Positions 1 to 46,268 of a DNA stretch of 47,020 nucleotides are shown in pieces. The position numbers and the translations under genes were made by a program. The stretch comes from a virus. Its lineage: Duplodnaviria; Heunggongvirae; Uroviricota; Caudoviricetes. Position 1 is the first letter of the stretch, and the number at the start of each line of letters is the position of its first letter. Location of the stretch: the IMG/VR virus record IMGVR_UViG_646862327_000001; one strand, 5' to 3'. The notes below the pieces were generated by a model that worked only from the letters and a program-made list of their open reading frames with translations, made no database searches and was not told where the DNA came from.

Positions 1-1143
1 CTATGCTGTTTTGATATCTACGATAATCCAGTCTTTACCACGATCATCATTGTATCGGTCGGTCATTTTTCTGGATTTATGGCCTAACAACTTTTGCGTA
101 TCCAGACCCTGTTCCCGATATAACCGTTCTGACAGAGATCGCTGCTCATGAAATGTGGGCGCAGTTCCTTGCTCCCATTTTATGCCACATTTTTCCCTGG
201 CCTTTTTAAAAGCCGTTGTCAGAGTATTCGCAGAAACCTGGTCTCCTCTGTTTGCTTGAGAGGTTGTGTGACGGTAATGGACCAGATATTTACTAACAAC
301 AGCATCCCTGCACTGAGATATAACTTCACGAAGGGTAATATTCAGAGCATCGCATTTCAGGTTAAGCGGAATAGCAAGTTTTGAACCGGTTTTTTCCTGA
401 GTAATGTGCAACATGTCGTCCCAGATATCAGAGAATTTCAAATTGCAGATATCGCCTAAACGTTGTCCAGTGACAAGAGCAAGTAGCATCCCGCATTTTA
501 AATAGGGCTGCCGTCTGCTTACGCTGTCAAATATTGCCTGCCATTCGGGCAGTGATAATCTTTGGCGGTTTACTCGATTTCGCGGTTGTTTTGTTGCCTG
601 CGCTGGGTTAAATCCTGGCGGAACATGTCCTGCGTGTTGTGCTTCTTTGAAGACGTCGATTAACACCATTCTCACGACTTGCGCCATCCTGTTATGACCT
701 TCAGCCTTTACAGCATCAATTATTTCGGCAATATCAAGTGCGGTAATATCCTTGAGGTGTTGCATTCCACAATGCTCACGGAAAAGACGAATGGGTTTGC
801 CTTTTTGCCGATAGGAGTTGGGTCTTAGTTCATTATGTTGCAGCCTGTCCTCCTGGATAGAAATATATTTATCAAGCCATTCTGTCACCGTAATGTCTGA
901 GCGCCTGCCTTTCATTCTTTCCAGACGCTCATTGACGCTTAATATTTGTCGGGTACGTTGTTCAGCAATAATGGTATTTGCTTCAGTAGCAACTTGTTTT
1001 GCTTCATTCTCATCAGTTCCTAAGCTATGAAAACGACCGGATAGTGGATGTTTGTATTGCCAATATACCTTTCCGGTTCGCTTATCTAATTTGCAATATA
1101 AATTGGGTATAGAGATTTTGTGAGATCGGGGTCTAGCAGCCAT
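1..1143 (-). CDS. int: Phage tyrosine integrase (lambda Int-like)
   Basis: 380-aa ORF with lambda-Int-like layout: Arg-rich N-terminal arm-binding region, C-terminal catalytic region (...HEQRSLSERLY...LLGHKSRKMTDRYNDDRG). First gene of the prophage, followed by xis. Confidence 0.9.
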   Translation of the reverse strand: MAARPRSHKISIPNLYCKLDKRTGKVYWQYKHPLSGRFHSLGTDENEAKQVATEANTIIAEQRTRQILSVNERLERMKGRRSDITVTEWLDKYISIQEDRLQHNELRPNSYRQKGKPIRLFREHCGMQHLKDITALDIAEIIDAVKAEGHNRMAQVVRMVLIDVFKEAQHAGHVPPGFNPAQATKQPRNRVNRQRLSLPEWQAIFDSVSRRQPYLKCGMLLALVTGQRLGDICNLKFSDIWDDMLHITQEKTGSKLAIPLNLKCDALNITLREVISQCRDAVVSKYLVHYRHTTSQANRGDQVSANTLTTAFKKAREKCGIKWEQGTAPTFHEQRSLSERLYREQGLDTQKLLGHKSRKMTDRYNDDRGKDWIIVDIKTA

Positions 1144-2596: not shown

Positions 2597-2757
2597 ACAG
2601 CCCCCCGTTTATTATTTATCTCCTCAGCCAGCCGCTGGGCTTTCAGTGGATTTTGGATAACAGAAAGGCCGGGAAATACCCAGCCTCGCTTTGTAACGGA
2701 GTAGACGAAAGTGATCGCGCCTACCCGGATATTATCGTGAGGATGCGTCATCGCCAT
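2569..2757 (-). CDS. Hypothetical small protein (62 aa) directly downstream of exo
   Basis: ATG at 2755-2757 preceded by GGGGAG; overlaps the exo stop by 10 bp and the next ORF by 28 bp (compact phage-like packing). Confidence 0.4.
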
Positions 2758-3428
2758 TGCTCCCCAAATACAAAACCAATTTCAGCCAGTGCCTCGTCCA
2801 TTTTTTCGATGAACTCCGGCACCATCTCGTCAAAACTCGCCATGTACTTTTCATCCCGCTCAACCACGACATAATGCAGTCCTTCACGCTTCATACGCGG
2901 GTCATAGTTGGCAAAGTACCAGGCATCTTTTCGCGTCACCCACATGCTGTACTGCACCTGGGCCATGTAAGCCGACTTTATGGCCTCGAAACCACCGAGC
3001 CGGAACTTCATGAAATCCCGGGAGGTAAACGGGCATTTCAGCTCAAGGCCATTGCCGTCACTGCATAAACCATCGGGAGAGCAGGCGGTGCGCATACTTT
3101 CGTCGCGATAGATGATCGGGGATTCAGTAACATTCACGCCGGAAGTGAATTTAAACAGGGTTCTGGCGTCGTTCTCGTACTGTTTTCCCCAGGCCAGCGC
3201 CTTAGCATTAACTTCCGGAGCCACACCGGTGCAAACCTCAGCCAGCAAGGTGTGGAAGTAGGACATTTTCATGTCAGGCCACTTCTTTCCTGAGCGGGGC
3301 TTTGCTATCACGTTGTGAACTTCTGAAGCGGTGATGACGCCGAGCCGTAATTTGTGCCATGCATCATCCCCCTGTTCGACAGCTCTCACGTCGATCCCGG
3401 TACGCTGCAGGATAATGTCCGGTGTCAT
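2748..3428 (-). CDS. exo: Lambda exonuclease (Red-alpha)
   Basis: 226-aa translation ([40 protein letters not shown]...GFVFGEQWR) recognised as essentially identical to lambda Exo from memory. Confidence 0.95.
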
Positions 3429-4210
3429 GCTGCCACCTTCTGCTCAGTGGCTTTCTGTTTCAGGAATCCAAGAGCTTTCACTGCTTCGGCTTGTGTCAGT
3501 TCTGACGATGCGCGAATGTCGCGGCGAAATATCTGGGAACAGAGCGGCAATAAGTCGTCATCCCATGTTTTATCCAGGGCGATCAGCAGAGTGTTAATCT
3601 CCTGCATGGTTTCATCGTTAACCGGAGTGATGTCGCGTTCCGGCTGACGTTCCGCAGTGTATGCAGTATTTTCGACAATGCGCTCGGCTTCATCCTTGTC
3701 ATAGATACCAGCAAATCCGAAGGCCAGACGGGCACACTGAATCATGGCTTTATGCCGTAACATCCGTTTGGGATGCGACTGCCACGGCCCCGTGATTTCT
3801 CTGCCTTCGCGAGTTTTGAATGGTTCGCGGCGGCATTCATCCATCCATTCGGTAACGCAGATCGGATGATTGCGGTCTTTGCGGTAAATCCGGCACGTAC
3901 ATGATTCATTGTCCTGCTCAAAGTCCATGCCATCAAACTGCTGGTTTTCATTGATGATGCGGGACCAGCCATCAACGCCCACCACCGGAACGATGCCGTT
4001 CTGCTTATCAGGGAAGGCGTAAATTTCTTTCGTCCACGGATTAAGGCCGTACTGGTTGGCGACGATCAGCAATGCGATGAACTGCGCATCGCTGGCATCA
4101 CCTTTAAATGCCGTCTGACGAAGAGTGGTGATCAGTTCCTGTGGGTCGACAGAATCCATGCCGACACGTTCAGCCAGCTTCCCGGCTAGCGTTGCGAGTG
4201 CTGTACTCAT
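3425..4210 (-). CDS. bet: Single-strand annealing protein Bet (Red-beta)
   Basis: 261-aa translation ([68 protein letters not shown]...) matches lambda Bet; 4-bp overlap with exo. Confidence 0.95.
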
Positions 4211-10380: not shown

Positions 10381-10447
10381 TGAAACAGGTGAGTTGAGTT
10401 CAAACTGTAGTACAATTCTCTCCAGTTTGAACAGGAAAGAATATGCT

Positions 10448-10780
10448 ATGAACCCTTATATTTATCTTGGTGGTGCAATACTTGCAGAGGTCATTGGTAC
10501 AACCTTAATGAAGTTTTCAGAAGGTTTTACACGGTTATGGCCATCTGTTGGTACAATTATTTGTTATTGTGCATCATTCTGGTTATTAGCTCAGACGCTG
10601 GCTTATATACCTACAGGGATTGCTTATGCTATCTGGTCAGGAGTCGGTATTGTCCTGATTAGCTTACTATCATGGGGATTTTTCGGCCAACGGTTGGACC
10701 TGCCAGCCATTATAGGCATGATGTTGATTTGTGCCGGTGTGTTGGTTATTAATTTATTGTCACGAAGCACACCACATTAA
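10448..10780 (+). CDS. emrE: Small multidrug resistance efflux protein EmrE
   Basis: 110 aa from ATG 10448 (MNPYIYLGGAILAEVIGTTLMKFSEGFTRLWPSVGTIICYCASFWLLAQTLAYIPTGIAYAIWSGVGIV...), recognised as E. coli EmrE (a DLP12 prophage gene in K-12); the TTG-extended ORF start at 10394 was rejected. Confidence 0.95.
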   Translation: MNPYIYLGGAILAEVIGTTLMKFSEGFTRLWPSVGTIICYCASFWLLAQTLAYIPTGIAYAIWSGVGIVLISLLSWGFFGQRLDLPAIIGMMLICAGVLVINLLSRSTPH

Positions 10781-10797
10781 AAATAATTTATTTTTAA
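10775..10797. repeat. Direct repeat copy 1 (CATTAAAAATAATTTATTTTTAA) at emrE 3' end
   Basis: 21/23 identical to a second copy at 12848-12870; the pair brackets the serine-recombinase gene. Confidence 0.7.
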
Positions 10798-11035
10798 ACG
10801 ACTAAAATATGGAGGTTCGTATATTTGTATGGGCCTCGTTTTATGCTTTTTGTTAATGTCTTTAGTTTTTATTCATTCTTTTGATCTTTCAAGACCATGG
10901 TGTAAGAAAATTGCAATACGATTATTGTTGTATATTCAAGATAATGTGACCTTAATTGTCTTTTTAAATAAAAATTAAACAAAAATCATATCTCACCACT
11001 AAGGTTTATAAAAGCATACTTTAGCAGGTGTCACC

Positions 11036-12562
11036 ATGAAAAAAGCCATAGCATATATGCGATTTTCATCACCAGGTCAGATGTCTGGTGATTCATTAAA
11101 CCGCCAGAGAAGGCTTATTACTGAATGGCTAAAGGTAAATAGTGATTATTACCTTGATACCGTAACGTATGAAGATTTGGGGTTAAGCGCATTCAATGGA
11201 AAGCATGCACAATCAGGAGCTTTTTCGGAATTTTTAGATGCTATAGAACATGGTTACATATTGCCAGGGACTACATTGTTAGTTGAAAGTCTGGACAGAC
11301 TTTCAAGAGAAAAAGTCGGTGAAGCGATTGAGCGTCTGAAATTGATTTTGAATCACGGTATTGATGTTATAACTCTTTGCGATAATACAGTCTATAATAT
11401 AGACTCATTGAATGAGCCATATTCATTAATAAAAGCCATACTTATAGCACAAAGGGCAAATGAAGAAAGCGAGATAAAGTCAAGTCGGGTTAAATTATCA
11501 TGGAAGAAAAAACGGCAGGATGCACTGGAATCAGGCACGATTATGACGGCGTCTTGTCCGAGATGGCTCTCATTGGATGACAAAAGAACAGCTTTTATTC
11601 CAGACCCCGACAGGGTGAAAACGATTGAGCTAATTTTTAAACTCAGGATGGAAAGGCGATCATTGAATGCAATAGCTAAGTATTTAAATGATCATGCTGT
11701 AAAAAATTTTTCAGGAAAAGAAAGTGCATGGGGGCCTTCTGTAATTGAAAAATTATTAGCGAATAAAGCTCTGATAGGTATATGCGTACCTTCATATCGT
11801 GCAAGAGGGAAAGGGATAAGTGAAATCGCTGGCTATTATCCCAGAGTCATATCAGATGATTTGTTTTACGCTGTACAGGAAATTCGGTTGGCACCTTTTG
11901 GTATTAGCAATAGTAGCAAGAATCCTATGCTAATAAATCTACTTCGAACAGTTATGAAGTGTGAGGCTTGTGGTAATACCATGATTGTTCATGCGGTATC
12001 TGGACGTTTGCATGGCTATTATGTTTGTCCGATGAGAAGATTACATCGATGTGACAGGCCATCAATAAAAAGAGATTTGGTTGATTATAATATCATTAAT
12101 GAATTGCTTTTTAATTGTAGCAAAATTCAACCAGTTGAAAACAAGAAAGATGCTAATGAAACTTTAGAGTTAAAAATTATTGAGCTTCAGATGAAAATTA
12201 ATAATTTAATCGTTGCATTGTCTGTCGCGCCTGAAGTTACCGCTATAGCAGAGAAAATAAGACTATTAGATAAGGAATTACGAAGGGCTTCGGTATCATT
12301 AAAAACTTTGAAGAGTAAAGGGGTGAGTTCACTTGGTGATTTTCATGCTATTGATTTAACCAGTAAAAATGGGCGAGAGCTATGTCGTACACTTGCCTAT
12401 AAAATATTCGAAAAAATTATAATTAATACAGATAATAAAACCTGTGATATCTATTTTATGAATGGCATTGTTTTTAAACACTATCCTTTAATGAAAGTAA
12501 TATCCGCCCAGCAGGCGATAAGTACTCTTAAATATATGGTTGATGGTGAGGTTTATTTTTGA
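11036..12562 (+). CDS. ybcK: Large serine recombinase (YbcK-like, 508 aa)
   Basis: N-terminal resolvase/invertase catalytic motif (AIAYMRFSSPGQ...LLVESLDRLSR) followed by a long recombinase extension with Cys clusters; AT-rich gene after emrE as in DLP12. Confidence 0.85.
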   Translation: MKKAIAYMRFSSPGQMSGDSLNRQRRLITEWLKVNSDYYLDTVTYEDLGLSAFNGKHAQSGAFSEFLDAIEHGYILPGTTLLVESLDRLSREKVGEAIERLKLILNHGIDVITLCDNTVYNIDSLNEPYSLIKAILIAQRANEESEIKSSRVKLSWKKKRQDALESGTIMTASCPRWLSLDDKRTAFIPDPDRVKTIELIFKLRMERRSLNAIAKYLNDHAVKNFSGKESAWGPSVIEKLLANKALIGICVPSYRARGKGISEIAGYYPRVISDDLFYAVQEIRLAPFGISNSSKNPMLINLLRTVMKCEACGNTMIVHAVSGRLHGYYVCPMRRLHRCDRPSIKRDLVDYNIINELLFNCSKIQPVENKKDANETLELKIIELQMKINNLIVALSVAPEVTAIAEKIRLLDKELRRASVSLKTLKSKGVSSLGDFHAIDLTSKNGRELCRTLAYKIFEKIIINTDNKTCDIYFMNGIVFKHYPLMKVISAQQAISTLKYMVDGEVYF

Positions 12563-12847
12563 GTAATAATCACTTTTTCAACCGTGCTATGGTATGAAAG
12601 TAAAGTAACTAATATGATATTAACTATCTTGAACGAAGCGCCCTGAGCTATAGTTTTACTATAGGCACTGTCACTGGATGTTGGCATTCTTGCTCTAGTA
12701 GCTCAACAATACCCAATCACAAAACAATTCACTGATAACAAACTTTGTGCACGTGCTTGGTTATGGCGAACAGGTGATGTTAACCTCTTGCCAGAATGCC
12801 ACTCCACTTCATTAAGTATCTGAGCACCGAGAGGCTGGTCACGCCCC

Positions 12848-12870
12848 CATTAAAAATAATTTCTTTTGAA
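12848..12870. repeat. Direct repeat copy 2 (CATTAAAAATAATTTCTTTTGAA)
   Basis: Partner of 10775-10797; lies ~285 bp downstream of the ybcK stop. Confidence 0.7.
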
Positions 12871-12883
12871 TCGAGTGAAATAG

Positions 12884-12911
12884 GTTAGCCCGCATAAGTG
12901 CGGGCTGCTTT
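12884..12911 (+). terminator. Rho-independent terminator between convergent ybcK and esterase genes
   Basis: Hairpin AGCCCGCA-taag-TGCGGGCT followed by GCTTTTT on the plus strand; abuts the esterase stop codon. Confidence 0.6.
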
Positions 12912-13955
12912 TTACAGGTCAGCGTTTGTTTTTTGTTGTTGGGTAGCGGTTTTTATGGGGGTTCCCAGGTTTTTAGTAAACCACTCAACAACTCTGTTTA
13001 TAATAATTGGCTGATACCATGTATTATCGCCATGCTCGGCCCCTTCTACCAGCACGTACTCAGCGTTATCACCGTTCTTCTTCAACATCCTGAATAGTTT
13101 GGCGCTTTGCTCAGGTGAAACCAGAGTGTCTTTGCTACCATGCATAATAAGAAATGGGGGTTTTACTCCTTTCATATGTCCGATTGGACTGGCGTTTAGC
13201 GCTTTTTCTTTTGACGCTGTGATGGGGGCTCCCGCAAAATTTCTGAATGCAGGGCCATTGATCATTAAGGCTTCGGTTACGGCAGGAGAGCGATGAACCT
13301 CCTGCACTGATTCAGGGAACCCCTCGCCAATATTCAACAAGTCAGAAATCCCATAAAGTGTGGCAACTGCCTGAACATCTGAGGATTGCTGAAGAAAGTC
13401 ACCTTTATCAAAGGTTTTGTCACCATTTGTAGTTCCCATCATCTGGGCAAGCCATCCACCGGCAGAGTCACCCAGAACTCCGATTCTTTGAGGATCAATC
13501 CCATAATTGCTGGCATGCTCTCTCAGGTAACGTATTGCAGCTTTTCCATCCTCAACTGGTGCTGGAAATGTATCAGGAATTGTTCTGTATTCTACAGCGG
13601 CCACAACAAAACCAGCTTCTGCCAGAGCCATTCTCATTTCAATAAATTTGTCATGTTCAGAAGACATGAATCCGCCGCCGGGATAATAAATAATGGCTGG
13701 TTTTAAATCATTTGTTCGCGGGACAAGAACTGACATGTGAAGCTGTCTGACAGAACGAGTTCCTTTTATCTGGGAATAAACAACATCACCAATGAGATCG
13801 ACCTGGTTTCTGGTCGGTGAAACACTAATGATATCTGCACCCGGGGTGTAACCAGGAAGATTAGTCTGGACAGGTGTTGCACAACTCCCGACCGACATGG
13901 CCATTGACATACCATACAATAGTGTTGCAGATGATAATATCTTGTTAATTTTCAT
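12912..13955 (-). CDS. Secreted alpha/beta-hydrolase (HSL-type esterase/lipase), probable lipoprotein
   Basis: 347 aa; N-terminal signal ending in a lipobox-like SVGSC; YYPGGGF oxyanion-hole motif, GDSAGG nucleophile elbow, downstream Asp/His (HGSKDT, AEHGD). Confidence 0.8.
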   Translation of the reverse strand: MKINKILSSATLLYGMSMAMSVGSCATPVQTNLPGYTPGADIISVSPTRNQVDLIGDVVYSQIKGTRSVRQLHMSVLVPRTNDLKPAIIYYPGGGFMSSEHDKFIEMRMALAEAGFVVAAVEYRTIPDTFPAPVEDGKAAIRYLREHASNYGIDPQRIGVLGDSAGGWLAQMMGTTNGDKTFDKGDFLQQSSDVQAVATLYGISDLLNIGEGFPESVQEVHRSPAVTEALMINGPAFRNFAGAPITASKEKALNASPIGHMKGVKPPFLIMHGSKDTLVSPEQSAKLFRMLKKNGDNAEYVLVEGAEHGDNTWYQPIIINRVVEWFTKNLGTPIKTATQQQKTNADL

Positions 13956-16464: not shown

Positions 16465-17547
16465 TTAGAACTGATAAACCAGACCTACAGCGACGATGTC
16501 GTCGGTATCAATACCAGCTGTTTTGGTAAACTTACTATCGTCAATTAAGTTGATTTTGTAATCAACAAAAGTGGACATGTTTTTATTAAAGTAGTAAGTA
16601 GCACCGACATCGACATACTTGACTAAGTCTCGGTCACCATGAACACCAAGGTCTTTACCTTTTGACTGAAGGTAAGCAACAGATGGTCGCAGACCGAAGT
16701 CAAACTGATATTGTGCTACTGCTTCAAAGTTTTGTGCTTTGTTTGCAATATGGTTATTACCAAAAACGGTCATATTCTGAGTTTCAGAATATGTGGTAGC
16801 CAGATAGATATTGTTCGCATCATATTTCAGGCCTGCAGCCCATACTTCCGCATTTTTGCCGGAGGCATTGAATTTGCTCTTACCATAGGCGACCTGACCG
16901 TCAGTGCGATCTGATTTAGCATAGGTTGCACCCACGCCGAATCCTTCATACTCATAAGTAGTGGAGAAACCGAAACCATCACCATTGACTTCAGTTACGT
17001 CAGTGCGGTCATTTTTACCCTGATACTGAGCAGCAAAGTTCAGGCCATCGACCAGACCAAAGAAGTCGTTGTTACGATAAGTTGCAACACCAGTAGTGCG
17101 ACCAGTCATGAACACATCTGTTTGGGTCCAGGTATCACCACCGAATTCTGGCAGGACGTCAGTCCACGCACCGATGTCGTATGCTACACCGTAGTTACGG
17201 CCGTAATCGATTGAGCCGTAATCACCAAATTTCAGGCCTGCAAATGCAAGACGGGTTTTGTCTTTGGAAGAACCTTGAGATTCAGCACGGTTGCCTTTGA
17301 ATTCATATTCCCACTGACCGAAACCAGTCAGTTGATCGTTGATTTGGGTTTCACCTTTGAAGCCAAGACGGGCATAAGTAGTATCACCATCATCTGCATC
17401 ATTAGAGGAGAAGTAGTGCTTGGCATTAACTTTCCCGTATAGATCCAGCTTGTTACTGTCTTTATTATAAATTTCAGCTGCCTGAGCAGACATCGCCATC
17501 AGTACTGATGCAGCTACAGCAGAAATTGCCACTGTTAATTTTTTCAT
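16465..17547 (-). CDS. nmpC: Outer-membrane general porin (NmpC/OmpD-like, OmpC/F family), intact
   Basis: 360 aa with signal peptide ([23 protein letters not shown]), porin beta-barrel signature and C-terminal ...VAVGLVYQF; antisense to the late operon between Q and S as in DLP12. Confidence 0.95.
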
Positions 17548-34425: not shown

Positions 34426-35169
34426 ATGACACAGACAGAATCAGCGATTCTGGCGCACGCCCGGCGATGTGCGCCAGCGGAGTCGTGCGGCTTCGTGGTG
34501 AGAACGCCGGAGGGGGAAAGATATTTTCCCTGCGTGAATATCTCCGGTGAGCCGGAGGATTATTTCCGGATGTCGCCGGAGGACTGGCTGCAGGCAGAAA
34601 TGCAGGGTGAGATAGTCGCGCTGGTCCACAGCCACCCCGGTGGTCTGCCCTGGCTGAGTGAGGCCGACCGGCGGCTGCAGGTGCAGAGTGATTTGCCGTG
34701 GTGGCTGGTCTGCCGGGGGACGATTCATAAGTTCCGCTGTGTGCCGCATCTCACCGGGCGGCGCTTTGAGCACGGGGTGACGGACTGTTACACGCTGTTC
34801 CGGGATGCTTATCATCTGGCGGGGATTGAGATGCCGGATTTTACGCGGGAGGATGACTGGTGGCGTCACGGTCAGAATCTCTATCTGGATAATCTGGAGG
34901 CAGCGGGGCTGTATCAGGTGCCGTTGTCAGCGGCGCAGCCGGGCGATGTGCTGCTGTGCTGCTTTGGTTCATCGGTGCCGAATCATGCCGCTATTTACTG
35001 TGGTGATGGCGAGCTGCTGCACCATATTCCTGAACAACTGAGCAAACGAGAGAGGTATACCGACAAATGGCAGCGACGCACACACTCCCTCTGGCGTCAC
35101 CGGGCATGGCACGCATCTGCCTTTACGGGGATTTACAACGATTTGGCCGCCGCATCGATCTTCGTGTGA
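34426..35169 (+). CDS. K: Tail assembly protein K (JAB/MPN + NlpC/P60-like)
   Basis: MTQTESAILAHARRCAPAESCGFVV...HSHPGG...; overlaps the start of I as in lambda. Confidence 0.85.
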   Translation: MTQTESAILAHARRCAPAESCGFVVRTPEGERYFPCVNISGEPEDYFRMSPEDWLQAEMQGEIVALVHSHPGGLPWLSEADRRLQVQSDLPWWLVCRGTIHKFRCVPHLTGRRFEHGVTDCYTLFRDAYHLAGIEMPDFTREDDWWRHGQNLYLDNLEAAGLYQVPLSAAQPGDVLLCCFGSSVPNHAAIYCGDGELLHHIPEQLSKRERYTDKWQRRTHSLWRHRAWHASAFTGIYNDLAAASIFV

Positions 35170-35738
35170 AAACGGGGGCTGAAGCTATCCGGGCGCTGGC
35201 CACACAGCTCCCGGCGTTTCGTCAGAAACTGAATGACGGCTGGTATCAGGTACGGATTGCCGGGCGGGATGTCAGCACGTCCGGATTAACGGCGCAGTTA
35301 CATGAGACTCTGCCTGATGGCGCTGTGATTCATATTGTTCCCAGAGTCGCCGGGGCCAAGTCAGGTGGTGTATTCCAGATTGTCCTGGGAGCTGCCGCCA
35401 TTGCCGGATCATTCTTTACTGCCGGAGCCACCCTTGCAGCATGGGGGGCAGCCATTGGGGCCGGTGGTATGACCGGCATCCTGTTTTCTCTCGGTGCCAG
35501 TATGGTGCTCGGTGGTGTGGCGCAGATGCTCGCACCGAAAGCCAGGACGCCCACAGCGACCAGCACGGATAACGGTAAGCAGAACACCTATTTCTCTTCA
35601 CTGGATAACATGGTTGCCCAGGGCAATGTTTTGCCTGTTCTGTACGGTGAAATGCGCGTGGGGTCACGCGTGGTTTCTCAGGAGATCAGCACGGCAGACG
35701 AAGGGGACGGTGGTCAGGTTGTGGTGATTGGTCGCTGA
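35067..35738 (+). CDS. I: Tail assembly protein I
   Basis: 223 aa with Gly/Ala-rich hydrophobic segment; lambda gpI-like. Confidence 0.9.
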   Translation: MAATHTLPLASPGMARICLYGDLQRFGRRIDLRVKTGAEAIRALATQLPAFRQKLNDGWYQVRIAGRDVSTSGLTAQLHETLPDGAVIHIVPRVAGAKSGGVFQIVLGAAAIAGSFFTAGATLAAWGAAIGAGGMTGILFSLGASMVLGGVAQMLAPKARTPTATSTDNGKQNTYFSSLDNMVAQGNVLPVLYGEMRVGSRVVSQEISTADEGDGGQVVVIGR

Positions 35739-36345: not shown

Positions 36346-37887
36346 ATGCCAACAGTTCCAATTTCTATGAGAAAACTTAAAGAAATTCTTAGGCTTAAAT
36401 ACGGTGTTGGACTCAGCCATCGACAAATTGGTCGTAGTCTTGCAATCTCCCCTTCCGTTGTATCCAGATATGCTAATCGGGCGGCTCAACTTGGCATAAA
36501 GCAGTGGCCCTTACCTACAGGATGGGATGATACAAAACTAAAACATGCGTTCCTTCAGACCCAGGTTAAGATGAAGAAGCACTCTCTGCCTGACTGGGCT
36601 ACAGTACACCGGGAACTGCGTAATAAATGCGTGACGCTGCAGCTACTCTGGGAAGAATACTGTGAGCGTAATCCAGGCGGTTTTTACAGCTATAACCATT
36701 ACTGCCGGATGTACCGTGAATGGCTCAAAACCACTTCACCATCAATGCGTCAGGTACATAAAGCTGGCGAAAAACTTTTCGTTGATTACTGTGGACCTAC
36801 CGTTGGCGTTACCGACCCTGAGACCGGAGAAATAAGAACTGCTCAGGTCATCGTAGCTGTTCTCGGGGCATCAAGTTACACATGGGCAGAGGCCACCTGG
36901 TCTCAGCAGCTTGAAGACTGGGTGATGAGTCATGTTCGCTGCTTCCAGTGGTTGGGTGGCGTTCCTGAACTTGTTGTTCCGGACAATCTGAAAAGCGCCA
37001 CATCCAGGGCATGTAAGTATGATCCTGACGTTAACCCTACCTACCAGCAGATGCTTGAGCATTATAATGTCGCAGTTTTGCCTGCGCGGCCACGTAAACC
37101 GAAAGATAAAGCCAAAGCTGAAGTTGGCGTTCAGGTTGTTGAACGCTGGATCATGGCCCGAATCAGGCATGAGATCTTCTACAGCCTTGCATCGCTTAAT
37201 CAGCGCATTCGGGAGTTGCTGGAAAGACTGAATAACAAAATAATGCAGAAGTTGGGTTATTCACGTGCAGAACTCTTCATCCAGCTTGATAAACCCGCAC
37301 TGAAGCCTCTTCCTGAAGCCAGTTACAGTTACACCCTGGTGAAGAAAGTCAGAGTTCATGCCGATTACCACGTGGAAATCGACAAACATTACTACTCGGT
37401 TCCATGTTCGCTGTTAGGCCAGCAACTGGAAGCATGGATCTCCGGAGAACTGGTAAGACTCTTCAATCAGGGGCAGGAGGTTGCTGTGCACCCGCGCAAG
37501 CGTACTTATGGCTACAGTACCCGCAACGAGCACATGCCTGAAGCTCATCGACAGCATGCCACCTGGACGCCAGAGCGTCTTCTGGAATGGGCGGGGCACA
37601 TAGGCAGTGAAACTCATAGTTATGTGCTTCATATACTGAACTCTCGTCCACATCCGGAACAAAGCTATCGCTTCTGCCTTGGACTCCTGAACCTTCATAA
37701 AAAATACAGTAAAGCCAGACTTAATGCAGCATGTGCAAGAGCTCTGAAAACAAAGGTATGGCGTCTGTCAGGTATTAAATCGATCCTGGAAAAAGGTCTG
37801 GATAAACAACCTGTTCAGGATCCAAAACCAGATCTGTTATCCACGATGGAACACGAAAACGTACGCGGCAGTGAGTATTACCACTGA
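36346..37887 (+). CDS. istA: IS21-family transposase IstA (513 aa)
   Basis: N-terminal HTH (LSHRQIGRSLAISPSVVSRY) then DDE integrase-like core; followed by istB. Confidence 0.8.
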   Translation: MPTVPISMRKLKEILRLKYGVGLSHRQIGRSLAISPSVVSRYANRAAQLGIKQWPLPTGWDDTKLKHAFLQTQVKMKKHSLPDWATVHRELRNKCVTLQLLWEEYCERNPGGFYSYNHYCRMYREWLKTTSPSMRQVHKAGEKLFVDYCGPTVGVTDPETGEIRTAQVIVAVLGASSYTWAEATWSQQLEDWVMSHVRCFQWLGGVPELVVPDNLKSATSRACKYDPDVNPTYQQMLEHYNVAVLPARPRKPKDKAKAEVGVQVVERWIMARIRHEIFYSLASLNQRIRELLERLNNKIMQKLGYSRAELFIQLDKPALKPLPEASYSYTLVKKVRVHADYHVEIDKHYYSVPCSLLGQQLEAWISGELVRLFNQGQEVAVHPRKRTYGYSTRNEHMPEAHRQHATWTPERLLEWAGHIGSETHSYVLHILNSRPHPEQSYRFCLGLLNLHKKYSKARLNAACARALKTKVWRLSGIKSILEKGLDKQPVQDPKPDLLSTMEHENVRGSEYYH

Positions 37888-37898
37888 TACGGGATCCA

Positions 37899-38648
37899 AT
37901 GATGAATCATCTTTACGAACAACTGACCGCACTTAAACTCACCGGCTTCCGTGATGCGCTTAAAAAGCAACTTGCTCAACCGGGCACATACCAGGAGCTG
38001 GGCTTCGAAGAACGCCTGTCATTACTGACAGCAGAAGAACTAACCTGCCGTGAAAACAGGAAGGCAGAGCGTCTGATCAAACATGCACGGTTCAGACTTA
38101 ATGCTGAGTTATCAAAGCTGGATTATCGTAACAATAGAGGGCTGGACAGGGCCCTCATCCGTTCACTCAGTCAGGGAAACTGGTTAACCCTGAAACAAAA
38201 TATTTTACTGACCGGGGCCACCGGCAGCGGTAAAACGTTCCTGGCATGTGCACTTGGTCATAATGCCTGCCGACAGGGATACAAGGTCTACTATTATCGC
38301 CTTAAAGCGCTGATGGAACAGTGCTATCAGGGGCATGCTGATGGAAGATACAGCAAACTTTTGACCAGGCTGAATAATAGCGATCTGCTGCTTCTGGATG
38401 ACTGGGGGCTGGAACCTCTCTCATCAGAACAGCGTAGCGACCTGCTGGAAATAGTGGATCTGATGTACCAACGAGGCTCAATCATCGTAGTGAGCCAGTT
38501 GCCGGTGGAAAACTGGTACAAAATGATCGGAGACTCCACACATGCGGATGCCATCCTAGATCGACTGGTTCATGGCAGTATCAAGATCGAACTTAAAGGA
38601 GAATCAATGCGGAAAATACAATCTCCGTTGACCGAAGGAGATCAGTGA
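37899..38648 (+). CDS. istB: IS21-family ATP-binding helper IstB
   Basis: AAA+/DnaC-like with Walker A GATGSGKT and Walker B LLLLDDWG. Confidence 0.85.
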   Translation: MMNHLYEQLTALKLTGFRDALKKQLAQPGTYQELGFEERLSLLTAEELTCRENRKAERLIKHARFRLNAELSKLDYRNNRGLDRALIRSLSQGNWLTLKQNILLTGATGSGKTFLACALGHNACRQGYKVYYYRLKALMEQCYQGHADGRYSKLLTRLNNSDLLLLDDWGLEPLSSEQRSDLLEIVDLMYQRGSIIVVSQLPVENWYKMIGDSTHADAILDRLVHGSIKIELKGESMRKIQSPLTEGDQ

Positions 38649-38738
38649 AGGTAATTTAAAAACGGTTCTGTGAAAGTGACACGAACCGATCTCCATCGAT
38701 GTTACTCACCGATCTCCTTCACGGTAATACGCAGTGTG

Positions 38739-41700
38739 CAGGCACTGGTGGAAACCACTTCAAAGGGGGACCGTAATCCGTCGGAAGTCCGCCTGCTGGT
38801 TCAGATACAGCGTAACGGTGGCTGGGTGACGGAAAAAGACATAACCATTAAGGGCAAAACCACCTCGCAGTATCTGGCCTCGGTGGTGGTGGATAACCTG
38901 CCTCCGCGCCCGTTCAATATCCGGATGCGCAGGATGACACCGGACAGCACCACAGACCAGCTGCAGAACAAAACGCTCTGGTCGTCATACACCGAAATCA
39001 TCGATGTGAAACAGTGCTACCCGAACACGGCACTGGTCGGCGTGCAGGTGGACTCGGAACAGTTCGGCAGCCAGCAGGTGAGCCGTAATTATCATCTTCG
39101 CGGGCGCATTCTGCAGGTGCCGTCGAACTATAACCCGCAGACGCGGCAATACATCGGTATCTGGGACGGGACGTTTAAACCGGCATACAGCAACAACATG
39201 GCCTGGTGTCTGTGGGATATGCTGACCCACCCGCGCTACGGCATGGGTAAACGTCTTGGTGCGGCAGATGTGGATAAATGGGCGCTGTATGTCATCGGCC
39301 AGAATTGCGACCAGTCGGTGCCGGACGGTTTTGGCGGCACGGAGCCGCGCATCACCTGTAACGCTTACCTGACCACACAGCGCAAGGCGTGGGATGTGCT
39401 CAGTGATTTCTGCTCGGCGATGCGCTGTATGCCGGTATGGAACGGGCAGACGCTGACGTTCGTGCAGGACCGGCCATCGGATAAGGTGTGGACCTATAAC
39501 CGCAGTAATGTGGTGATGCCGGAAGATGGCGCGCCGTTCCGCTACAGCTTCAGCGCCCTGAAGGACCGTCATAATGCCGTTGAGGTGAACTGGATTGACC
39601 CGGATAACGGCTGGGAGACGGCGACAGAGCTTGTGGAGGACACGCGGGCCATTGCCCGTTACGGTCGTAATGTCACGAAGATGGACGCCTTTGGCTGTAC
39701 CAGCCGGGGGCAGGCACACCGAGCCGGGCTGTGGCTGATTAAAACGGAGCTGCTGGAAACGCAGACCGTGGACTTTAGCGTGGGTGCTGAAGGGCTTCGC
39801 CATGTACCGGGCGATGTCATTGAAATCTGCGATGATGACTATGCCGGTATCAGCACCGGCGGGCGCGTGCTGGCGGTGAACAGCCAGACCCGGACGCTGA
39901 CGCTCGACCGTGAAATCACGCTGCCATCCTCCGGCACCACGCTGATAAGCCTGGTTGACGGGCAGGGTAATCCGGTGAGCGTGGAGGTTCAGTCCGTCAC
40001 CGACGGCGTGAAGGTGAAAGTGAGCCGGGTTCCTGACGGCGTTGCCGAATACAGCGTGTGGGGGCTGAAGCTGCCGACGCTGCGCCAGCGCCTGTTCCGC
40101 TGTGTGAGTATCCGTGAGAATGACGACGGTACGTATGCCATCACCGCCGTGCAGCATGTACCGGCAAAAGAGGCCATCGTGGATAACGGGGCGCACTTTG
40201 ACGGCGACCAGAGCGGAACGGTAAACGGTGTCACGCCGCCAGCAGTACAGCACCTGACCGCAGAAGTCACCGCAGACAGCGGGGAATACCAGGTGCTGGC
40301 GCGCTGGGATACGCCGAAGGTGGTGAAGGGGGTGAGCTTTATGCTTCGCCTGACCGTGGCAGCGGATGACGGCAGTGAGCGGCTGGTCAGCACGGCCCGG
40401 ACGACGGAAACCACATACCGCTTCACGCAACTGGCGCTGGGAAACTACAGGCTGACAGTCCGGGCGGCAAATGCCTGGGGGCAGCAGGGCGATCCGGCAT
40501 CGGTATCGTTCCGTATTGCCGCACCGGCAGCGCCGTCGCGGATTGAGCTGACGCCGGGCTATTTTCAGATCACCGCCACGCCGCATCTTGCCGTTTATGA
40601 TCCGACGGTACAGTTTGAGTTCTGGTTCTCGGAAAAGCGGGTTGCGGATATCAGGCAGGTTGAAACTACAGCCCGCTATCTTGGCACGGCGCTGTACTGG
40701 ATAGCTGCCAGTATCAATATCAAGCCGGGCCATGATTATTATTTTTATATCCGCAGTGTGAATACTGTTGGCAAATCGGCATTCGTGGAGGCTGTCGGTC
40801 GGGCGAGCGATGATGCGGAAGGTTACCTGGATTTTTTCAAAGGCCAGATAACCGAATCCCATCTCGGCAAGGAGCTGCTGGAAAAAGTCGAGCTGACGGA
40901 GGATAACGCCAGCAAACTGGAGGAGTTCTCGAAAGAGTGGAAAGACGCCAACGATAAATGGAATGCCATGTGGGGTGTCAAAATTGAGCAGACCGAAGAC
41001 GGCAAACATTATGTCGCGGGGCTTGGCCTCAGCATGGAGGATACAGAGGAAGGCAAACTGAGCCAGTTCCTGGTTGCCGCTAACCGTATCGCGTTTATTG
41101 ACCCGGCAAACGGGAATGAAACGCCGATGTTTGTGGCGCAGGGCAACCAGATATTCATGAACGAAGTGTTCCTGAAGTATCTGACGGCTCCCACCATTAC
41201 CAGCGGCGGCAATCCGCCGGTATTTTCCCTGACACCGGACGGGCGGCTGACGGCGAAAAATGCCGATATCAGCGGTAACGTGAATGCGAACTCCGGGACG
41301 CTCAATAATGTCACGATTAACCAGAACTGTCGGATTATGGGAAAACTGTCTGCCAACCAGATTGAAGGTGATATTGTCAAAACGGTGGGAAAAGCCTTTC
41401 CGAGAAATGGCAGTTATGCCAGCGGTACAATAACGGTCACTGTGTACGATGACCAGGCTTTTGACCGTCAGATAGTAATCCCACCCGTTCTGTTTCGCGG
41501 TGGTAAGCATGAAAACTTCAACAGCAACAACCAACAGTCATACTGGTATTCAACCTGTAAGCTGCAGGTACTGAAGAACGGACAGGAAATCTTTCAGCAA
41601 CCCGCGACGGATGTCAGCAGGGTATTTTCATCAGTCATTGATATGCCTGCCGGACACGGCCATGTCACCCTGACTTTCAATGTTTCTTCATATGGTGCTA

Positions 41701-41783
41701 ATAACTGGACGCCAACGACCAGTATCAGCGACCTTCTTGTTGTTGTGATGAAGAAATCTACAGCCGGTATCAGTATCAGTTGA
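38739..41783 (+). pseudogene. J: Tail tip/host-specificity protein J, 3' fragment (central fibronectin-like region + C-terminal receptor-binding region)
   Basis: Resumes exactly at ...[29 protein letters not shown]... collinear with lambda J; the ORF-track N-terminal extension (38670-38738) is IS-derived sequence. Confidence 0.9.
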
Positions 41784-44654: not shown

Positions 44655-46268
44655 ATGAGTCAGAAATACCTCATTCGCATCGCAGAGCTGGAAAGGTTGC
44701 TCTCTGAGCAGGCTGAAGCCCTCCGTCAGAAAGACCAGCAACTGAGTCTGGTTGAAGAGACGGAAGCCTTCCTGCGCTCTGCACTGACACGTGCCGAAGA
44801 AAAGATCGAAGAAGATGAACGGGAAATAGAACATCTGCGGGCTCAGATAGAAAAACTGCGCCGGATGCTGTTCGGTACCCGTTCTGAAAAACTGCGTCGT
44901 GAAGTTGAACTGGCTGAGGCTCTGCTGAAACAACGTGAACAGGACAGCGATCGTTACAGTGGGCGGGAAGACGATCCTCAGGTTCCCCGCCAGTTGCGAC
45001 AGTCGCGCCATCGTCGTCCGTTACCGGCACACCTTCCCCGTGAAATACACCGCCTGGAGCCAGAAGAAAGCTGTTGCCCGGAGTGTGGCGGTGAGCTGGA
45101 TTATCTGGGGGAAGTCAGCGCTGAACAGCTGGAACTGGTGAGCAGTGCCCTGAAAGTGATCCGCACAGAACGGGTAAAAAAAGCCTGTACAAAATGTGAC
45201 TGTATTGTTGAAGCACCGGCGCCGTCCCGCCCGATAGAGCGTGGTATCGCGGGCCCCGGATTACTTGCCCGCGTGTTAACGGGAAAATACTGCGAACATC
45301 TGCCACTGTATCGTCAGAGTGAAATCTTTGCCCGCCAGGGTGTCGAACTGAGCCGGGCCTTACTCTCCAACTGGGTTGACGCGTGCTGCCAGTTAATGAC
45401 ACCGGTGAATGATGCCCTGTACCGTTATGTAATGAATACCCGCAAGGTTCACACTGATGACACACCGGTAAAGGTACTGGCACCGGGTCAGAAAAAGGCG
45501 AAAACAGGGCGTATCTGGACGTATGTCCGGGATGATCGCAATGTGGGTTCGTCATCTCCTCCAGCGGTCTGGTTCGCGTACTCGCCGAACCGGCAGGGGA
45601 AACACCCGGAGCAACACCTCCGCCCCTTCCGGGGTATCCTGCAGGCGGATGCGTTCACAGGTTACGACAGGTTGTTCAGTGCAGAACGTGAAGGTGGTGC
45701 ACTGACAGAAGTTGCGTGCTGGGCCCATGCCCGGCGAAAAATCCACGATGTATACATCAGCAGCAAAAGTGCGACGGCAGAAGAAGCCCTGAAGCGAATC
45801 AGTGAACTGTACGCCATCGAGGATGAAATACGGGGATTACCGGAGTCAGAGCGTCTTGCCGTCAGGCAGCAGCGAAGCAAAGTGTTACTGACGTCGCTGC
45901 ATGAATGGATGGTGGAGAAGAATGGTACGCTGTCGAAAAAATCCAGACTGGGCGAAGCGTTCAGCTATGTACTGAATCAGTGGGATGCCCTCTGTTATTA
46001 CAGTGATGACGGTCTGGCGGAGGCGGATAATAATGCTGCGGAAAGAGCGCTTCGTGCAGTCTGTCTCGGAAAGAAAAACTTTATGTTCTTTGGCAGCGAT
46101 CACGGCGGCGAGCGTGGAGCACTGTTGTACGGGCTGATCGGCACCTGCCGTCTGAACGGTATCGATCCGGAAGCGTATCTGCGCCATATCCTGAGCGTAC
46201 TGCCGGAATGGCCTTCCAACCGAGTTGACGAACTCCTGCCATGGAACGTAGTACTCACCAATAAATAA
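44655..46268 (+). CDS. IS66-family transposase (orf3/TnpC, 537 aa)
   Basis: N-terminal coiled-coil/leucine-zipper, CxxC zinc-finger (CCPECGGE...CTKCDC), DDE-type core. Confidence 0.85.
   Translation: MSQKYLIRIAELERLLSEQAEALRQKDQQLSLVEETEAFLRSALTRAEEKIEEDEREIEHLRAQIEKLRRMLFGTRSEKLRREVELAEALLKQREQDSDRYSGREDDPQVPRQLRQSRHRRPLPAHLPREIHRLEPEESCCPECGGELDYLGEVSAEQLELVSSALKVIRTERVKKACTKCDCIVEAPAPSRPIERGIAGPGLLARVLTGKYCEHLPLYRQSEIFARQGVELSRALLSNWVDACCQLMTPVNDALYRYVMNTRKVHTDDTPVKVLAPGQKKAKTGRIWTYVRDDRNVGSSSPPAVWFAYSPNRQGKHPEQHLRPFRGILQADAFTGYDRLFSAEREGGALTEVACWAHARRKIHDVYISSKSATAEEALKRISELYAIEDEIRGLPESERLAVRQQRSKVLLTSLHEWMVEKNGTLSKKSRLGEAFSYVLNQWDALCYYSDDGLAEADNNAAERALRAVCLGKKNFMFFGSDHGGERGALLYGLIGTCRLNGIDPEAYLRHILSVLPEWPSNRVDELLPWNVVLTNK

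What the first reader, a model, noticed from the sequence alone, without database searches (positions are those of the whole stretch)
10775..12870. Large serine recombinase gene bracketed by 23-bp direct repeats next to emrE
A 23-bp AT-rich sequence at the emrE 3' end (CATTAAAAATAATTTATTTTTAA, 10775-10797) recurs with 21/23 identity at 12848-12870, so the repeats bracket a ~2.07-kb AT-rich segment whose only gene is the 508-aa serine recombinase. The repeat core is a near-dyad, like the short sites used by serine recombinases. This looks like the footprint of a small recombinase-borne insertion or an invertible/excisable cassette inside the nin region, not just a cargo gene. The prophage already has a tyrosine integrase, so this is a second, independent recombination system.
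Basis: seen in the sequence. Interest (0 to 1): 0.55.

Follow-up and report, generated by a model that had tools for sequence, protein, structure and literature searches.

The report
Recombination scar beside prophage recombinase ybcK
The two short repeats around the ybcK recombinase gene are real, but they are most likely two diverged copies of the tail end of the neighbouring emrE gene, left when two related prophage modules were joined out of register; this is ordinary phage mosaicism, not evidence that the recombinase moves this DNA.

Summary
The 23-mer recurs at 21/23 identity, and the match extends to 38 nt at 84% with a 15-nt perfect core, 2,073 bp apart. Shuffled sequence gives no such match.

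The window is a DLP12-like lambdoid prophage identical to one in E. coli DA33135 and LF82. The predicted empty site exists. Two of 5,426 complete genomes, four IMG/VR contigs and two metagenome contigs have emrE followed by a single repeat copy, a terminator and the esterase gene.

The evidence still favours a mosaic scar over recombinase att sites:
- Each repeat copy is the emrE stop codon plus 3' UTR, followed by a different terminator.
- The right end of the bracketed segment is a truncated, frameshifted P22AR_C gene that is intact in related prophages.
- Occupied prophages resemble ybcK/P22AR_C prophages on the left and empty-type prophages on the right.
- All eight empties share one private emrE allele, so there is no sign of recurrent excision.
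- No inversion or circle junction was found.
- Other ybcK arrangements, K-12 included, have no second copy.
- The dyad is polymorphic.

YbcK itself is an intact large serine recombinase under purifying selection (dN/dS about 0.07). Its target remains unknown. Interest is low to moderate.

The parts
10448..10780 (+). emrE (SMR efflux pump, 110 aa). Its last codon and stop codon lie inside repeat copy 1.
   Evidence: Pfam Multi_Drug_Res E=2e-35; annotated emrE in the identical RefSeq prophage.
10772..10809 (+). Repeat copy 1: the last emrE codons, the stop codon and the 3' UTR, variant 1. The 15-nt perfect core is 10775-10789. Copy 1 is a 10-1-10 palindrome in this allele only.
   Evidence: At least 5 sequence variants of this copy occur among related loci.
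10812..10847 (+). Terminator-like hairpin plus T-run directly after copy 1 (emrE terminator, variant 1). The ylcJ start codon (10829) lies inside it.
   Evidence: Terminator scan.
10829..10978 (+). ylcJ-like small ORF (49 aa).
   Evidence: Pfam PF23688 YlcJ E=1e-28; annotated ylcJ in K-12-type records.
11036..12562 (+). ybcK, a large serine recombinase (508 aa), intact.
   Evidence: Resolvase, Recombinase and Zn_ribbon_recom domains; phrog_95 integrase; invariant R9, S11, Q15, D87, R88, R91; dN/dS about 0.07.
12563..12842 (+). ybcK-downstream spacer plus the decayed 5' half of a P22AR C-terminal-domain gene (5-nt deletion, in-frame stops). Homology to the intact gene stops at 12842.
   Evidence: Alignment with MINF_2E L002, where the 107-aa gene is intact.
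12843..12844 (.). Novel joint: 2 nt that can be assigned to neither parent.
12845..12882 (+). Repeat copy 2: a vestigial emrE tail (CC-CAT-TAA) plus 3' UTR variant 2. It is identical to the single copy in empty-type prophages. The core is 12848-12862.
   Evidence: Invariant in 21 occupied loci.
12886..12917 (+). Strong plus-strand intrinsic terminator (GCCCGCA-TAAG-TGCGGGC, then T-run). In empty-type prophages it is the emrE terminator.
   Evidence: It is absent where the esterase sits next to a different gene.
12912..13955 (-). Alpha/beta-hydrolase (BD-FAE esterase) cargo gene; right flank of the insertion/deletion difference.
   Evidence: Pfam BD-FAE E=5e-45; phrog_3341 esterase.
1..1143 (-). 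Lambda-type tyrosine integrase of the prophage (context only).
   Evidence: Arm-DNA-bind_1 and Phage_integrase domains.

Best explanation
The two repeats are diverged copies of the same piece of DNA: the end of emrE (last codon and stop) plus about 30 nt of its 3' UTR, up to the terminator. Lambdoid prophages carry two variants of the emrE module. In variant 1 the UTR runs into terminator 1, ylcJ and ybcK, followed in some phages by an intact P22AR_C gene. In variant 2 the UTR runs into terminator 2 and a convergent esterase gene, with no ybcK.

The arrangement in this window arose by one out-of-register, non-homologous or micro-homologous join between a variant-1 phage and a variant-2 phage. 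The break in the variant-1 phage was in the middle of P22AR_C. The break in the variant-2 phage was about 9 nt before the emrE stop. The product kept a full emrE-ylcJ-ybcK block, half a P22AR_C gene that has since decayed, a vestigial emrE tail (copy 2), terminator 2 and the esterase.

The repeat is therefore a mosaic scar of phage module shuffling and not a pair of recombinase sites. YbcK is a functional serine recombinase carried as conserved cargo, tightly linked to emrE. Its substrate is not identified here.

What is shown: the anatomy, the parentage of each flank, and the single origin of the empties. What is inferred: the order of events and the enzymology of the join. The phage's own Exo/Bet (Red-type) system or host illegitimate recombination are candidates.
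For: 1. Both copies sit between the emrE-type stop codon and a plus-strand terminator hairpin, at 10812-10837 and 12886-12907. In prophages where the esterase follows an inverse-autotransporter gene, homology starts only at the esterase stop (window 12908). Copy 2 and terminator 2 therefore belong to an emrE module and not to the esterase.
2. Window 12563-12842 aligns at about 85% to the ybcK-downstream region and the 5' half of an intact 107-aa P22AR_C gene in MINF_2E and phage Turner. It has a 5-nt deletion, and homology stops at 12842. Similarity to the emrE tail starts at 12845.
3. Flank parentage differs on the two sides. In the ren segment upstream of emrE, occupied prophages resemble the MINF_2E arrangement (emrE-ylcJ-ybcK with an intact P22AR_C gene): 5-8 mismatches per 300 nt. 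Empty-type prophages differ there by 18-22 per 300 nt. To the right, occupied SCU-301 and empty F467 differ by only 3 of about 1,100 nt.
4. The two copies differ at 6 of 38 positions, while emrE itself differs by about 1% among lineages. They are old alleles from different lineages, not a fresh duplication.
5. All 8 empties share one emrE allele, with 0 mismatches in the 400 nt left of the junction and 2 private SNPs in the last 130 nt of emrE. They sit behind at least 3 different upstream modules, and the allele is absent from the 13 occupied loci whose left flank is held.
6. The other ybcK arrangements checked, MINF_2E and K-12, have no second copy.
7. An independent parallel exists. A 59% YbcK homologue in another lambdoid nin region is bracketed by a roughly 200-nt, 86%-identical partial duplication of a DUF1367 gene.
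8. The phage encodes Exo (YqaJ) and Bet (RecT).
Against: The break on the emrE side falls within about 9 nt of the stop codon. In K-12 the ybcK block also lies between the emrE stop and sequence homologous to the chromosomal emrE-ybcL spacer, where homology resumes 14 nt past the stop. Two junctions this close to the same AT-rich spot are somewhat unlikely for random illegitimate joins and hint at a hot spot or a specific site. A survivorship argument reduces this objection but does not remove it: longer emrE duplications would be lost by homologous deletion. That argument is an inference.

The empty site is also exactly what an attB would look like. The recombinase gene lies 260 bp from copy 1, which is typical of integrase-att spacing. 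Copy 2 reads CCCCATTAA where present-day empties read CCACATTAA, so the exact variant-2 parent is not among the sampled sequences. No experiment was done.
Confidence: 0.6

Rival explanations
1. The repeats are attL and attR of a small integrative cassette (ylcJ-ybcK-P22AR_C') that YbcK inserted site-specifically into the AT-rich dyad at the emrE stop codon. The empties are unoccupied attB sites.
For: Single-copy hybrid empty sites exist. YbcK is an intact large serine recombinase with its catalytic residues, under purifying selection. It lies 260 bp from copy 1. Copy 1 is a 10-1-10 palindrome in this allele. Every full-length ybcK in E. coli sits next to emrE: 1,397 genomes against 1,398 with the joint block. 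In K-12 the block also starts right at the emrE stop relative to the chromosomal emrE-ybcL locus.
Against: The element's right end would lie inside a truncated pseudogene that is intact in relatives. The inner arm of copy 1 is itself the native emrE 3' UTR in ybcK prophages that have no second copy, so the supposed attP would be made of emrE sequence. The dyad is polymorphic while ybcK stays constrained, and symmetry does not extend beyond 10 bp (read from the sequence). The left flank of occupied prophages is not empty-type. All empties share a single origin. No circle or inversion junction was found. No similar site lies near six homologues, and Erwiniaceae plasmid homologues have no flanking repeats. 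No candidate directionality factor was seen in the segment, and serine integrases normally need one to recombine attL with attR (general knowledge).
Confidence: 0.15
2. The occupied arrangement is the older one. The empties arose from it by a single deletion between the two direct repeats, with the crossover in the 15-nt core, through Red- or RecA-mediated short-homology recombination or replication slippage, without YbcK. Copy 2 would still have originated as an emrE-tail vestige.
For: The empty junction equals the left flank of copy 1, the core, and the right flank of copy 2. The bases just left of the core in the empties (CCA) match copy 1 and not copy 2 (CCC). The empty-type esterase allele nests within the diversity of occupied prophages. 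The phage has Exo/Bet.
Against: The empties' ren-emrE allele is at most 97.5% identical to any ybcK-carrying prophage among 5,426 genomes, so extra recombination events are needed. Only one origin is seen, although about 170 occupied genomes offered opportunities.
Confidence: 0.2
3. The repeats are a target-site duplication made by a transposition-type insertion, or a chance similarity of AT-rich sequence.
For: They are direct repeats flanking a recombinase gene.
Against: Copies that are 38 nt long and only 84% identical are not what a fresh target duplication looks like. Serine recombinases do not make long duplications (general knowledge). Shuffles give zero chance matches. Copy 2 is identical to the real emrE 3' end of the empties.
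Confidence: 0.02

Closest known systems
emrE-ylcJ-ybcK block of the DLP12 cryptic prophage of E. coli K-12
   Same: Same gene order between ren and the ybcN/ninE/rusA genes. The block is about 96% identical from emrE to 9 nt past the ybcK stop. ybcK is annotated only as 'recombinase family protein'.
   Different: K-12 continues into ybcL-ybcM. It has no P22AR_C remnant, no esterase, and no second copy of the emrE tail within 3 mismatches.
Large serine recombinase integrative elements (phiC31, Bxb1 and A118 integrases; TnpX of Tn4451), from general knowledge
   Same: Same domain architecture (Resolvase, Recombinase, Zn ribbon) and conserved catalytic Ser and Arg residues. An occupied/empty difference with a single-copy site exists.
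   Different: There is no defined element end, no independent insertions, no conserved dyad and no directionality factor. The prophage integrates with its own tyrosine integrase. No solved-structure relative is detectable by sequence.
Lambdoid mosaic joints and 'morons' (promoter-gene-terminator cargo in the nin region; Hendrix and Juhala-type mosaicism; Red-promoted recombination between diverged short homologies), from general knowledge
   Same: Similarity changes sharply at a gene boundary, each flank has a different closest relative, the cargo is AT-rich, and terminators flank the cargo.
   Different: Here the joint left a recognisable 38-nt vestige of the neighbouring gene's end, so it mimics a pair of att sites around a recombinase gene.
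Chromosomal emrE-ybcL-ybcM islet next to fliE (E. coli W and about 2,300 other complete genomes)
   Same: emrE is about 92.7% identical. Homology with the prophage copy ends about 10 nt after the stop codon, at the same spot as the left repeat.
   Different: It is not in a prophage, has no ylcJ-ybcK, and has a different 3' UTR.

Membership tests
Large serine recombinase (protein family) | N-terminal resolvase catalytic domain with the Ser nucleophile and conserved Arg/Asp residues | tested here: met
   PF00239 E=8e-19. Y7, R9, S11, Q15 and D87-R88-L89-S90-R91 are invariant in 15 homologues down to 29% identity.
Large serine recombinase (protein family) | Recombinase domain followed by a zinc-ribbon domain with Cys ligands | tested here: met
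   PF07508 E=2e-14 and PF13408 E=5e-8. C309, C312, C331 and C339 are nearly invariant.
Large serine recombinase (protein family) | Demonstrated recombination of cognate att sites | not testable with these tools
   No experimental paper on YbcK recombination was found.
Serine-integrase-borne integrative cassette (attL/attR) | An empty site with one hybrid copy exists in relatives | tested here: met
   F467, Rb-50, 4 IMG/VR contigs and 2 metagenome contigs.
Serine-integrase-borne integrative cassette (attL/attR) | The same two element ends wherever the recombinase occurs | tested here: not met
   The right boundary differs among arrangements: window 12571, 12628, 12780, 12842 and 12847. There is no second copy in MINF_2E or K-12. 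The right end lies in a truncated gene.
Serine-integrase-borne integrative cassette (attL/attR) | Evidence of repeated movement (independent insertions or excisions, circle junctions) | tested here: not met
   All 8 empties share one private emrE allele. No circle junction appears in IMG/VR. ybcK is never found away from emrE.
Serine-integrase-borne integrative cassette (attL/attR) | Dyad-symmetric half-sites conserved around a central dinucleotide | tested here: inconclusive
   The 10-1-10 palindrome is perfect only in the window-class allele. At least 5 variants occur elsewhere. There is no symmetry beyond 10 bp (read from the sequence). The sequence is AT-rich and of low complexity.
DNA invertase switch (Hin/Gin/Pin type) | Inverted repeats flanking the segment, with both orientations present in populations | tested here: not met
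   The repeats are direct. The inversion-junction query covers at least 80% in 0 of 5,426 genomes and has 0 IMG/VR matches.
Transposon with target-site duplication | Short identical duplication created at insertion | tested here: not met
   The repeat is 38 nt at 84% identity. Copy 2 is identical to another lineage's emrE 3' UTR.
Lambdoid mosaic joint / moron boundary | Each side of the joint has a different closest relative, and similarity changes sharply at the joint | tested here: met
   The left side matches the MINF_2E arrangement up to 12842. The right side matches the empty type from 12845.
Lambdoid mosaic joint / moron boundary | The cargo unit carries its own terminator (and promoter) and an atypical base composition | tested here: inconclusive
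   Terminators are predicted after both UTR variants. GC is 0.28-0.40 against 0.50-0.56 in the flanks. Promoter-like hits are no more frequent than in shuffles.

The most novel reading that the evidence does not exclude
YbcK is an active large serine recombinase whose natural target is the AT-rich dyad overlapping the emrE stop codon. In that case ylcJ-ybcK, with variable trailing cargo, would be a minimal serine-recombinase-borne cassette that homes to the 3' end of emrE inside prophages and chromosomal islets. The K-12 and LF82-type arrangements would be two separate outcomes of that targeting.
Probability: 0.12. Interest if true: 0.6.

Novelty: new member of a known kind. Interest (0 to 1): 0.25.

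Why it matters
If the scar reading is right, this is a clean worked example of how lambdoid module shuffling can leave direct repeats around a recombinase gene that look like att sites. That is a caution for automated searches for serine-integrase att sites that rely on occupied/empty comparisons.

The analysis also gives ybcK, an uncharacterised K-12 gene, a clearer status. It is intact, under strong purifying selection, present in about a quarter of complete E. coli genomes, and always linked to emrE, yet it has no identifiable substrate. That makes it a reasonable target for a simple recombination assay.

If the minority reading is right, it would define a new small integrase with a known 40-bp target in E. 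coli.

Tried and rejected
- **Chance repeat.** Rejected by shuffles.
- **Target-site duplication.** Rejected because the copies are only 84% identical and copy 2 equals another lineage's emrE 3' end.
- **Invertible segment.** A synthetic inversion junction found nothing in 5,426 genomes or in IMG/VR.
- **Circle or joined-end junction.** None in IMG/VR.
- **Repeat belongs to the esterase gene's 3' end.** Rejected: in about 500 genomes the esterase sits next to an inverse autotransporter and homology begins only at its stop codon.
- **A second repeat copy at the end of a larger cassette in other arrangements.** None within 3 mismatches in MINF_2E or K-12. An 11-nt TTAAAAAATAA in K-12 (L004:6443) was noted, but it lies 38 nt before homology to the emrE-ybcL spacer resumes, so it is not convincing.
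- **A conserved site near YbcK homologues.** Best matches within 800 nt of six homologues are at the shuffle level. There are no flanking repeats in three Erwiniaceae plasmid loci.
- **Empty site for the Duffyella plasmid homologue.** The gene sits between two unrelated modules, with no clean empty site.
- **Known RNA in the spacers.** Rfam found nothing.
- **Defence-system membership.** No PADLOC hit.
- **Solved-structure relative by sequence.** None.
- **Literature on ybcK recombination or on emrE/DLP12 module structure.** Nothing relevant.
- **Vestigial 'Ala-Pro-His-stop' reading of copy 2.** An early idea of mine that came from miscounting the C-run.
Full report
**1. The observation**

The sequence is as described. 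The 23-mer at 10775-10797 recurs at 12848-12870 with two mismatches. No match with up to three mismatches appeared in 100 dinucleotide-preserving shuffles. Ungapped extension gives 38 nt (10772-10809 against 12845-12882) at 84% identity, 2,073 bp apart. The first 15 nt, CATTAAAAATAATTT, are identical in both copies. Copy 1 in this window is a perfect 10-1-10 palindrome.

The emrE stop codon is at 10778-10780. The repeat therefore consists of the last emrE codon, the stop codon and about 30 nt of 3' UTR.

The bracketed segment holds more than the recombinase:
- a ylcJ-like ORF at 10829-10978 (Pfam YlcJ, E=1e-28);
- ybcK at 11036-12562;
- about 280 bp that prove to be a gene remnant (section 3).

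Low GC (0.28-0.40) begins at emrE, not at the repeat. A lambda-type tyrosine integrase lies at 1-1143 on the minus strand. Exo and Bet homologues lie at 2748-4210.

**2. What the locus is**

The region is 100% identical to a lambdoid prophage of E. coli DA33135 and LF82. Its gene order is O, P, ren, emrE, (ylcJ), ybcK, alpha/beta hydrolase (minus strand), ybcN, ninE, ybcO, rusA, quuD. The same arrangement is present in the sequenced free phage Lambda_4C10. It is a relative of K-12's DLP12.

YbcK has the Resolvase, Recombinase and Zn-ribbon domains and matches the PHROG integrase family. R9, S11, Q15 and the DRLSR motif are invariant across homologues down to 29% identity. Among E. coli alleles dN/dS is 0.06-0.08, at dS up to 0.16. 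It is therefore a functional protein and not a relic. I found no paper that tests its recombination activity.

**3. Comparative anatomy**

Searches of 5,426 complete E. coli genomes show several arrangements downstream of emrE:

| Label | Arrangement | Where found |
|---|---|---|
| W | Chromosomal fliE / emrE-ybcL-ybcM, no ybcK, emrE about 92.7% identical | about 2,300 genomes |
| B | emrE-ylcJ-ybcK-464 nt-ybcL-ybcM | K-12 |
| C | emrE-ylcJ-ybcK, intact 107-aa P22AR_C gene, hypothetical gene, ybcN | MINF_2E; free phage Turner |
| D | The arrangement in this window | about 170 genomes, always +2,073 or 2,074 bp |
| E | Same prophage backbone; emrE followed directly by one repeat copy, the terminator and the hydrolase | F467 and Rb-50, the only two full matches to a synthetic empty-site query |
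| F | P, inverse autotransporter, hydrolase | about 500 genomes |

The E junction reads: left flank of copy 1, core, right flank of copy 2.

Three further observations bear on the interpretation.
- Window 12563-12842 aligns at about 85% with the ybcK-downstream spacer and the 5' half of the intact P22AR_C gene of arrangement C. It carries a 5-nt deletion and stop codons. Homology ends at 12842, and similarity to the emrE tail begins at 12845. The right end of the bracketed segment is therefore a break inside a gene.
- Each repeat copy is followed within a few bases by a different plus-strand terminator hairpin, at 10812-10837 and 12886-12907.
- In arrangement F, homology to the window starts only at the hydrolase stop codon (window 12908). 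Copy 2 and terminator 2 therefore belong to an emrE module and not to the hydrolase.

Together these show that the repeat is the emrE 3' end in two module variants.

**4. Parentage of the flanks**

*Left of the junction.* In the ren segment, occupied (D) prophages resemble arrangement C, with 5-8 mismatches per 300 nt. Arrangement E differs from both by 18-22 per 300 nt. The E ren-emrE allele is at most 97.5% identical to anything else in the 5,426 genomes.

*Right of the junction.* Occupied SCU-301 and empty F467 differ at 3 of about 1,100 nt, and at 0 in the first 400 nt. Two occupied subclasses differ from each other at about 15 positions.

D therefore looks like a C-type left part joined to an E-type right part.

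Six more empties were found, four IMG/VR contigs and two metagenome contigs. All eight empties have an identical 400 nt to the left of the junction, with two private SNPs in the last 130 nt of emrE. They sit behind at least three different upstream modules. None of the 13 occupied loci whose left flank is held carries that allele. The emrE-terminator-hydrolase module is thus one coherent old haplotype that has moved between phage backbones. It is not the product of repeated excision.

**5. Tests of the cassette or att-site idea**

| Test | Result |
|---|---|
| Second copy of the repeat in arrangement C or K-12 (up to 3 mismatches) | None |
| Right boundary of ybcK-linked sequence | Differs among arrangements: window 12571, 12628, 12780, 12842 |
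| Sequence of copy 1 | At least five variants; the perfect dyad exists only in the window class |
| Sequence of copy 2 | Invariant in 21 loci |
| Inversion junction | 0 of 5,426 genomes; none in IMG/VR |
| Joined-end (circle) junction | None in IMG/VR |
| Full-length ybcK against the joint emrE+ybcK block | 1,397 against 1,398 genomes, so ybcK is never found elsewhere |
| Similar site within 800 nt of six homologues (40-61% identity) | None above the shuffle level |
| Flanking repeats in three plasmid homologue loci | None |
| Known RNA family in the spacers | None |
| Defence-system hit | None |

One homologue (59% identity) lies in another lambdoid nin region. It is bracketed by a roughly 200-nt, 86%-identical partial duplication of a DUF1367 gene. 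This is the same kind of out-of-register scar.

**6. Most likely mechanism**

I estimate about 0.6 for the following account. One out-of-register join between a C-type and an E-type phage produced D. It left a vestigial emrE tail (copy 2) downstream of ybcK and a broken P22AR_C gene that has since decayed. The 6/38 divergence between the copies, against about 1% divergence within emrE, fits alleles from different lineages and not a duplication made at insertion. The enzyme responsible is inferred, not shown. The phage's Exo/Bet system or host illegitimate recombination are candidates.

**7. What keeps the rivals alive**

- The break on the emrE side is only about 9 nt from the stop codon.
- In K-12 the ybcK block also lies between the emrE stop and sequence homologous to the W-type emrE-ybcL spacer, where homology resumes 14 nt after the stop.
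- Two junctions at the same AT-rich spot hint at a hot spot.
- An attB would look exactly like the E junction, and ybcK lies 260 bp from copy 1.

I give the YbcK att-site reading about 0.15. I give about 0.2 to the variant in which the empties arose once by deletion between the repeats. The base just left of the core in the empties matches copy 1 and not copy 2.

**8. Comparison, novelty and score**

YbcK passes the protein-family tests for a large serine recombinase. The locus fails most tests for a serine-integrase-borne element, for an invertase switch and for a target-site duplication. It passes those for a lambdoid mosaic joint.

The gene block is the known DLP12 emrE-ylcJ-ybcK block. As far as I could find, the occupied/empty difference and the vestigial emrE tail have not been described, but they are a new instance of a well-known process.

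Interest is 0.25. The most novel reading not excluded is that YbcK homes to the emrE stop-codon dyad. I give it a probability of about 0.12 and an interest of 0.6 if true.

Noticed in passing
window 36346-38648: An IS21-family element sits between tail gene I (35067-35738) and a J-like tip attachment gene (38670-41783). It consists of a 513-aa IstA-like transposase (rve domain) and a 249-aa IstB. The J-like ORF is 1,037 aa, starts with GTG, and matches the FNIII-A profile only from position 31. The IS probably interrupts the 5' end of J, which would make this copy of the prophage tail-defective.
   Followed up: partly
window 44655-46268: An IS66-family transposase (537 aa) lies near the tail-fibre end of the prophage. 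An ISEc23 (IS66-like) element also sits next to the esterase gene in strain 463.
   Followed up: no
window 16465-17547 (-): An OmpC/NmpC-like porin gene is carried as late-region cargo downstream of quuD, as in DLP12.
   Followed up: no
window 10812-10837 and 10829: The start codon of the ylcJ-like ORF lies inside the predicted emrE terminator hairpin. ylcJ translation and emrE termination may therefore interfere with each other.
   Followed up: no
window 12912-13955 (-) and loci L005, L020, L021: The BD-FAE-type esterase gene is a mobile nin-region cargo gene found in three left-hand contexts: after ybcK, directly after emrE, and after a 1,421-aa inverse autotransporter. Its left boundary lies exactly at its stop codon.
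   Followed up: partly
L019 5652-5851 and 8633-8831: A 59%-identical YbcK homologue lies in another lambdoid nin region, together with KGG and DinI genes. It is bracketed by a roughly 200-nt, 86% direct repeat that is a partial duplication of a DUF1367 gene. A SIR2_2 gene lies nearby.
   Followed up: partly
L014 6001-7530 and 8070-8432: In an Atlantibacter genome a 59% YbcK homologue is the last gene of a prophage with Mu-like baseplate genes. It lies about 540 nt from the 3' end of the tmRNA gene and next to smpB, the position expected for that prophage's integrase.
   Followed up: partly
L011 4851-6608: On a Duffyella plasmid the 51% homologue sits exactly between two modules that occur separately on other plasmids. 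One is an AraC/aldo-keto reductase module, 96% identical in Rahnella, Kosakonia and Erwinia. The other is an iron ABC transporter module. The family may mark module junctions more generally.
   Followed up: partly
L001 4069-5928: About 2,300 complete E. coli genomes carry a chromosomal emrE-ybcL-ybcM islet next to fliE, outside any prophage. Its emrE is about 92.7% identical to the prophage copy. K-12's DLP12 looks like this islet with ylcJ-ybcK and about 300 nt inserted right after the emrE stop.
   Followed up: partly
window 10381-10780 versus 10781-12562: emrE is much more conserved among prophage lineages (0-3 differences per 100 nt) than the adjacent ylcJ region and ybcK (up to 12 per 100 nt). 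This suggests a separate history, or stronger constraint, for emrE.
   Followed up: no
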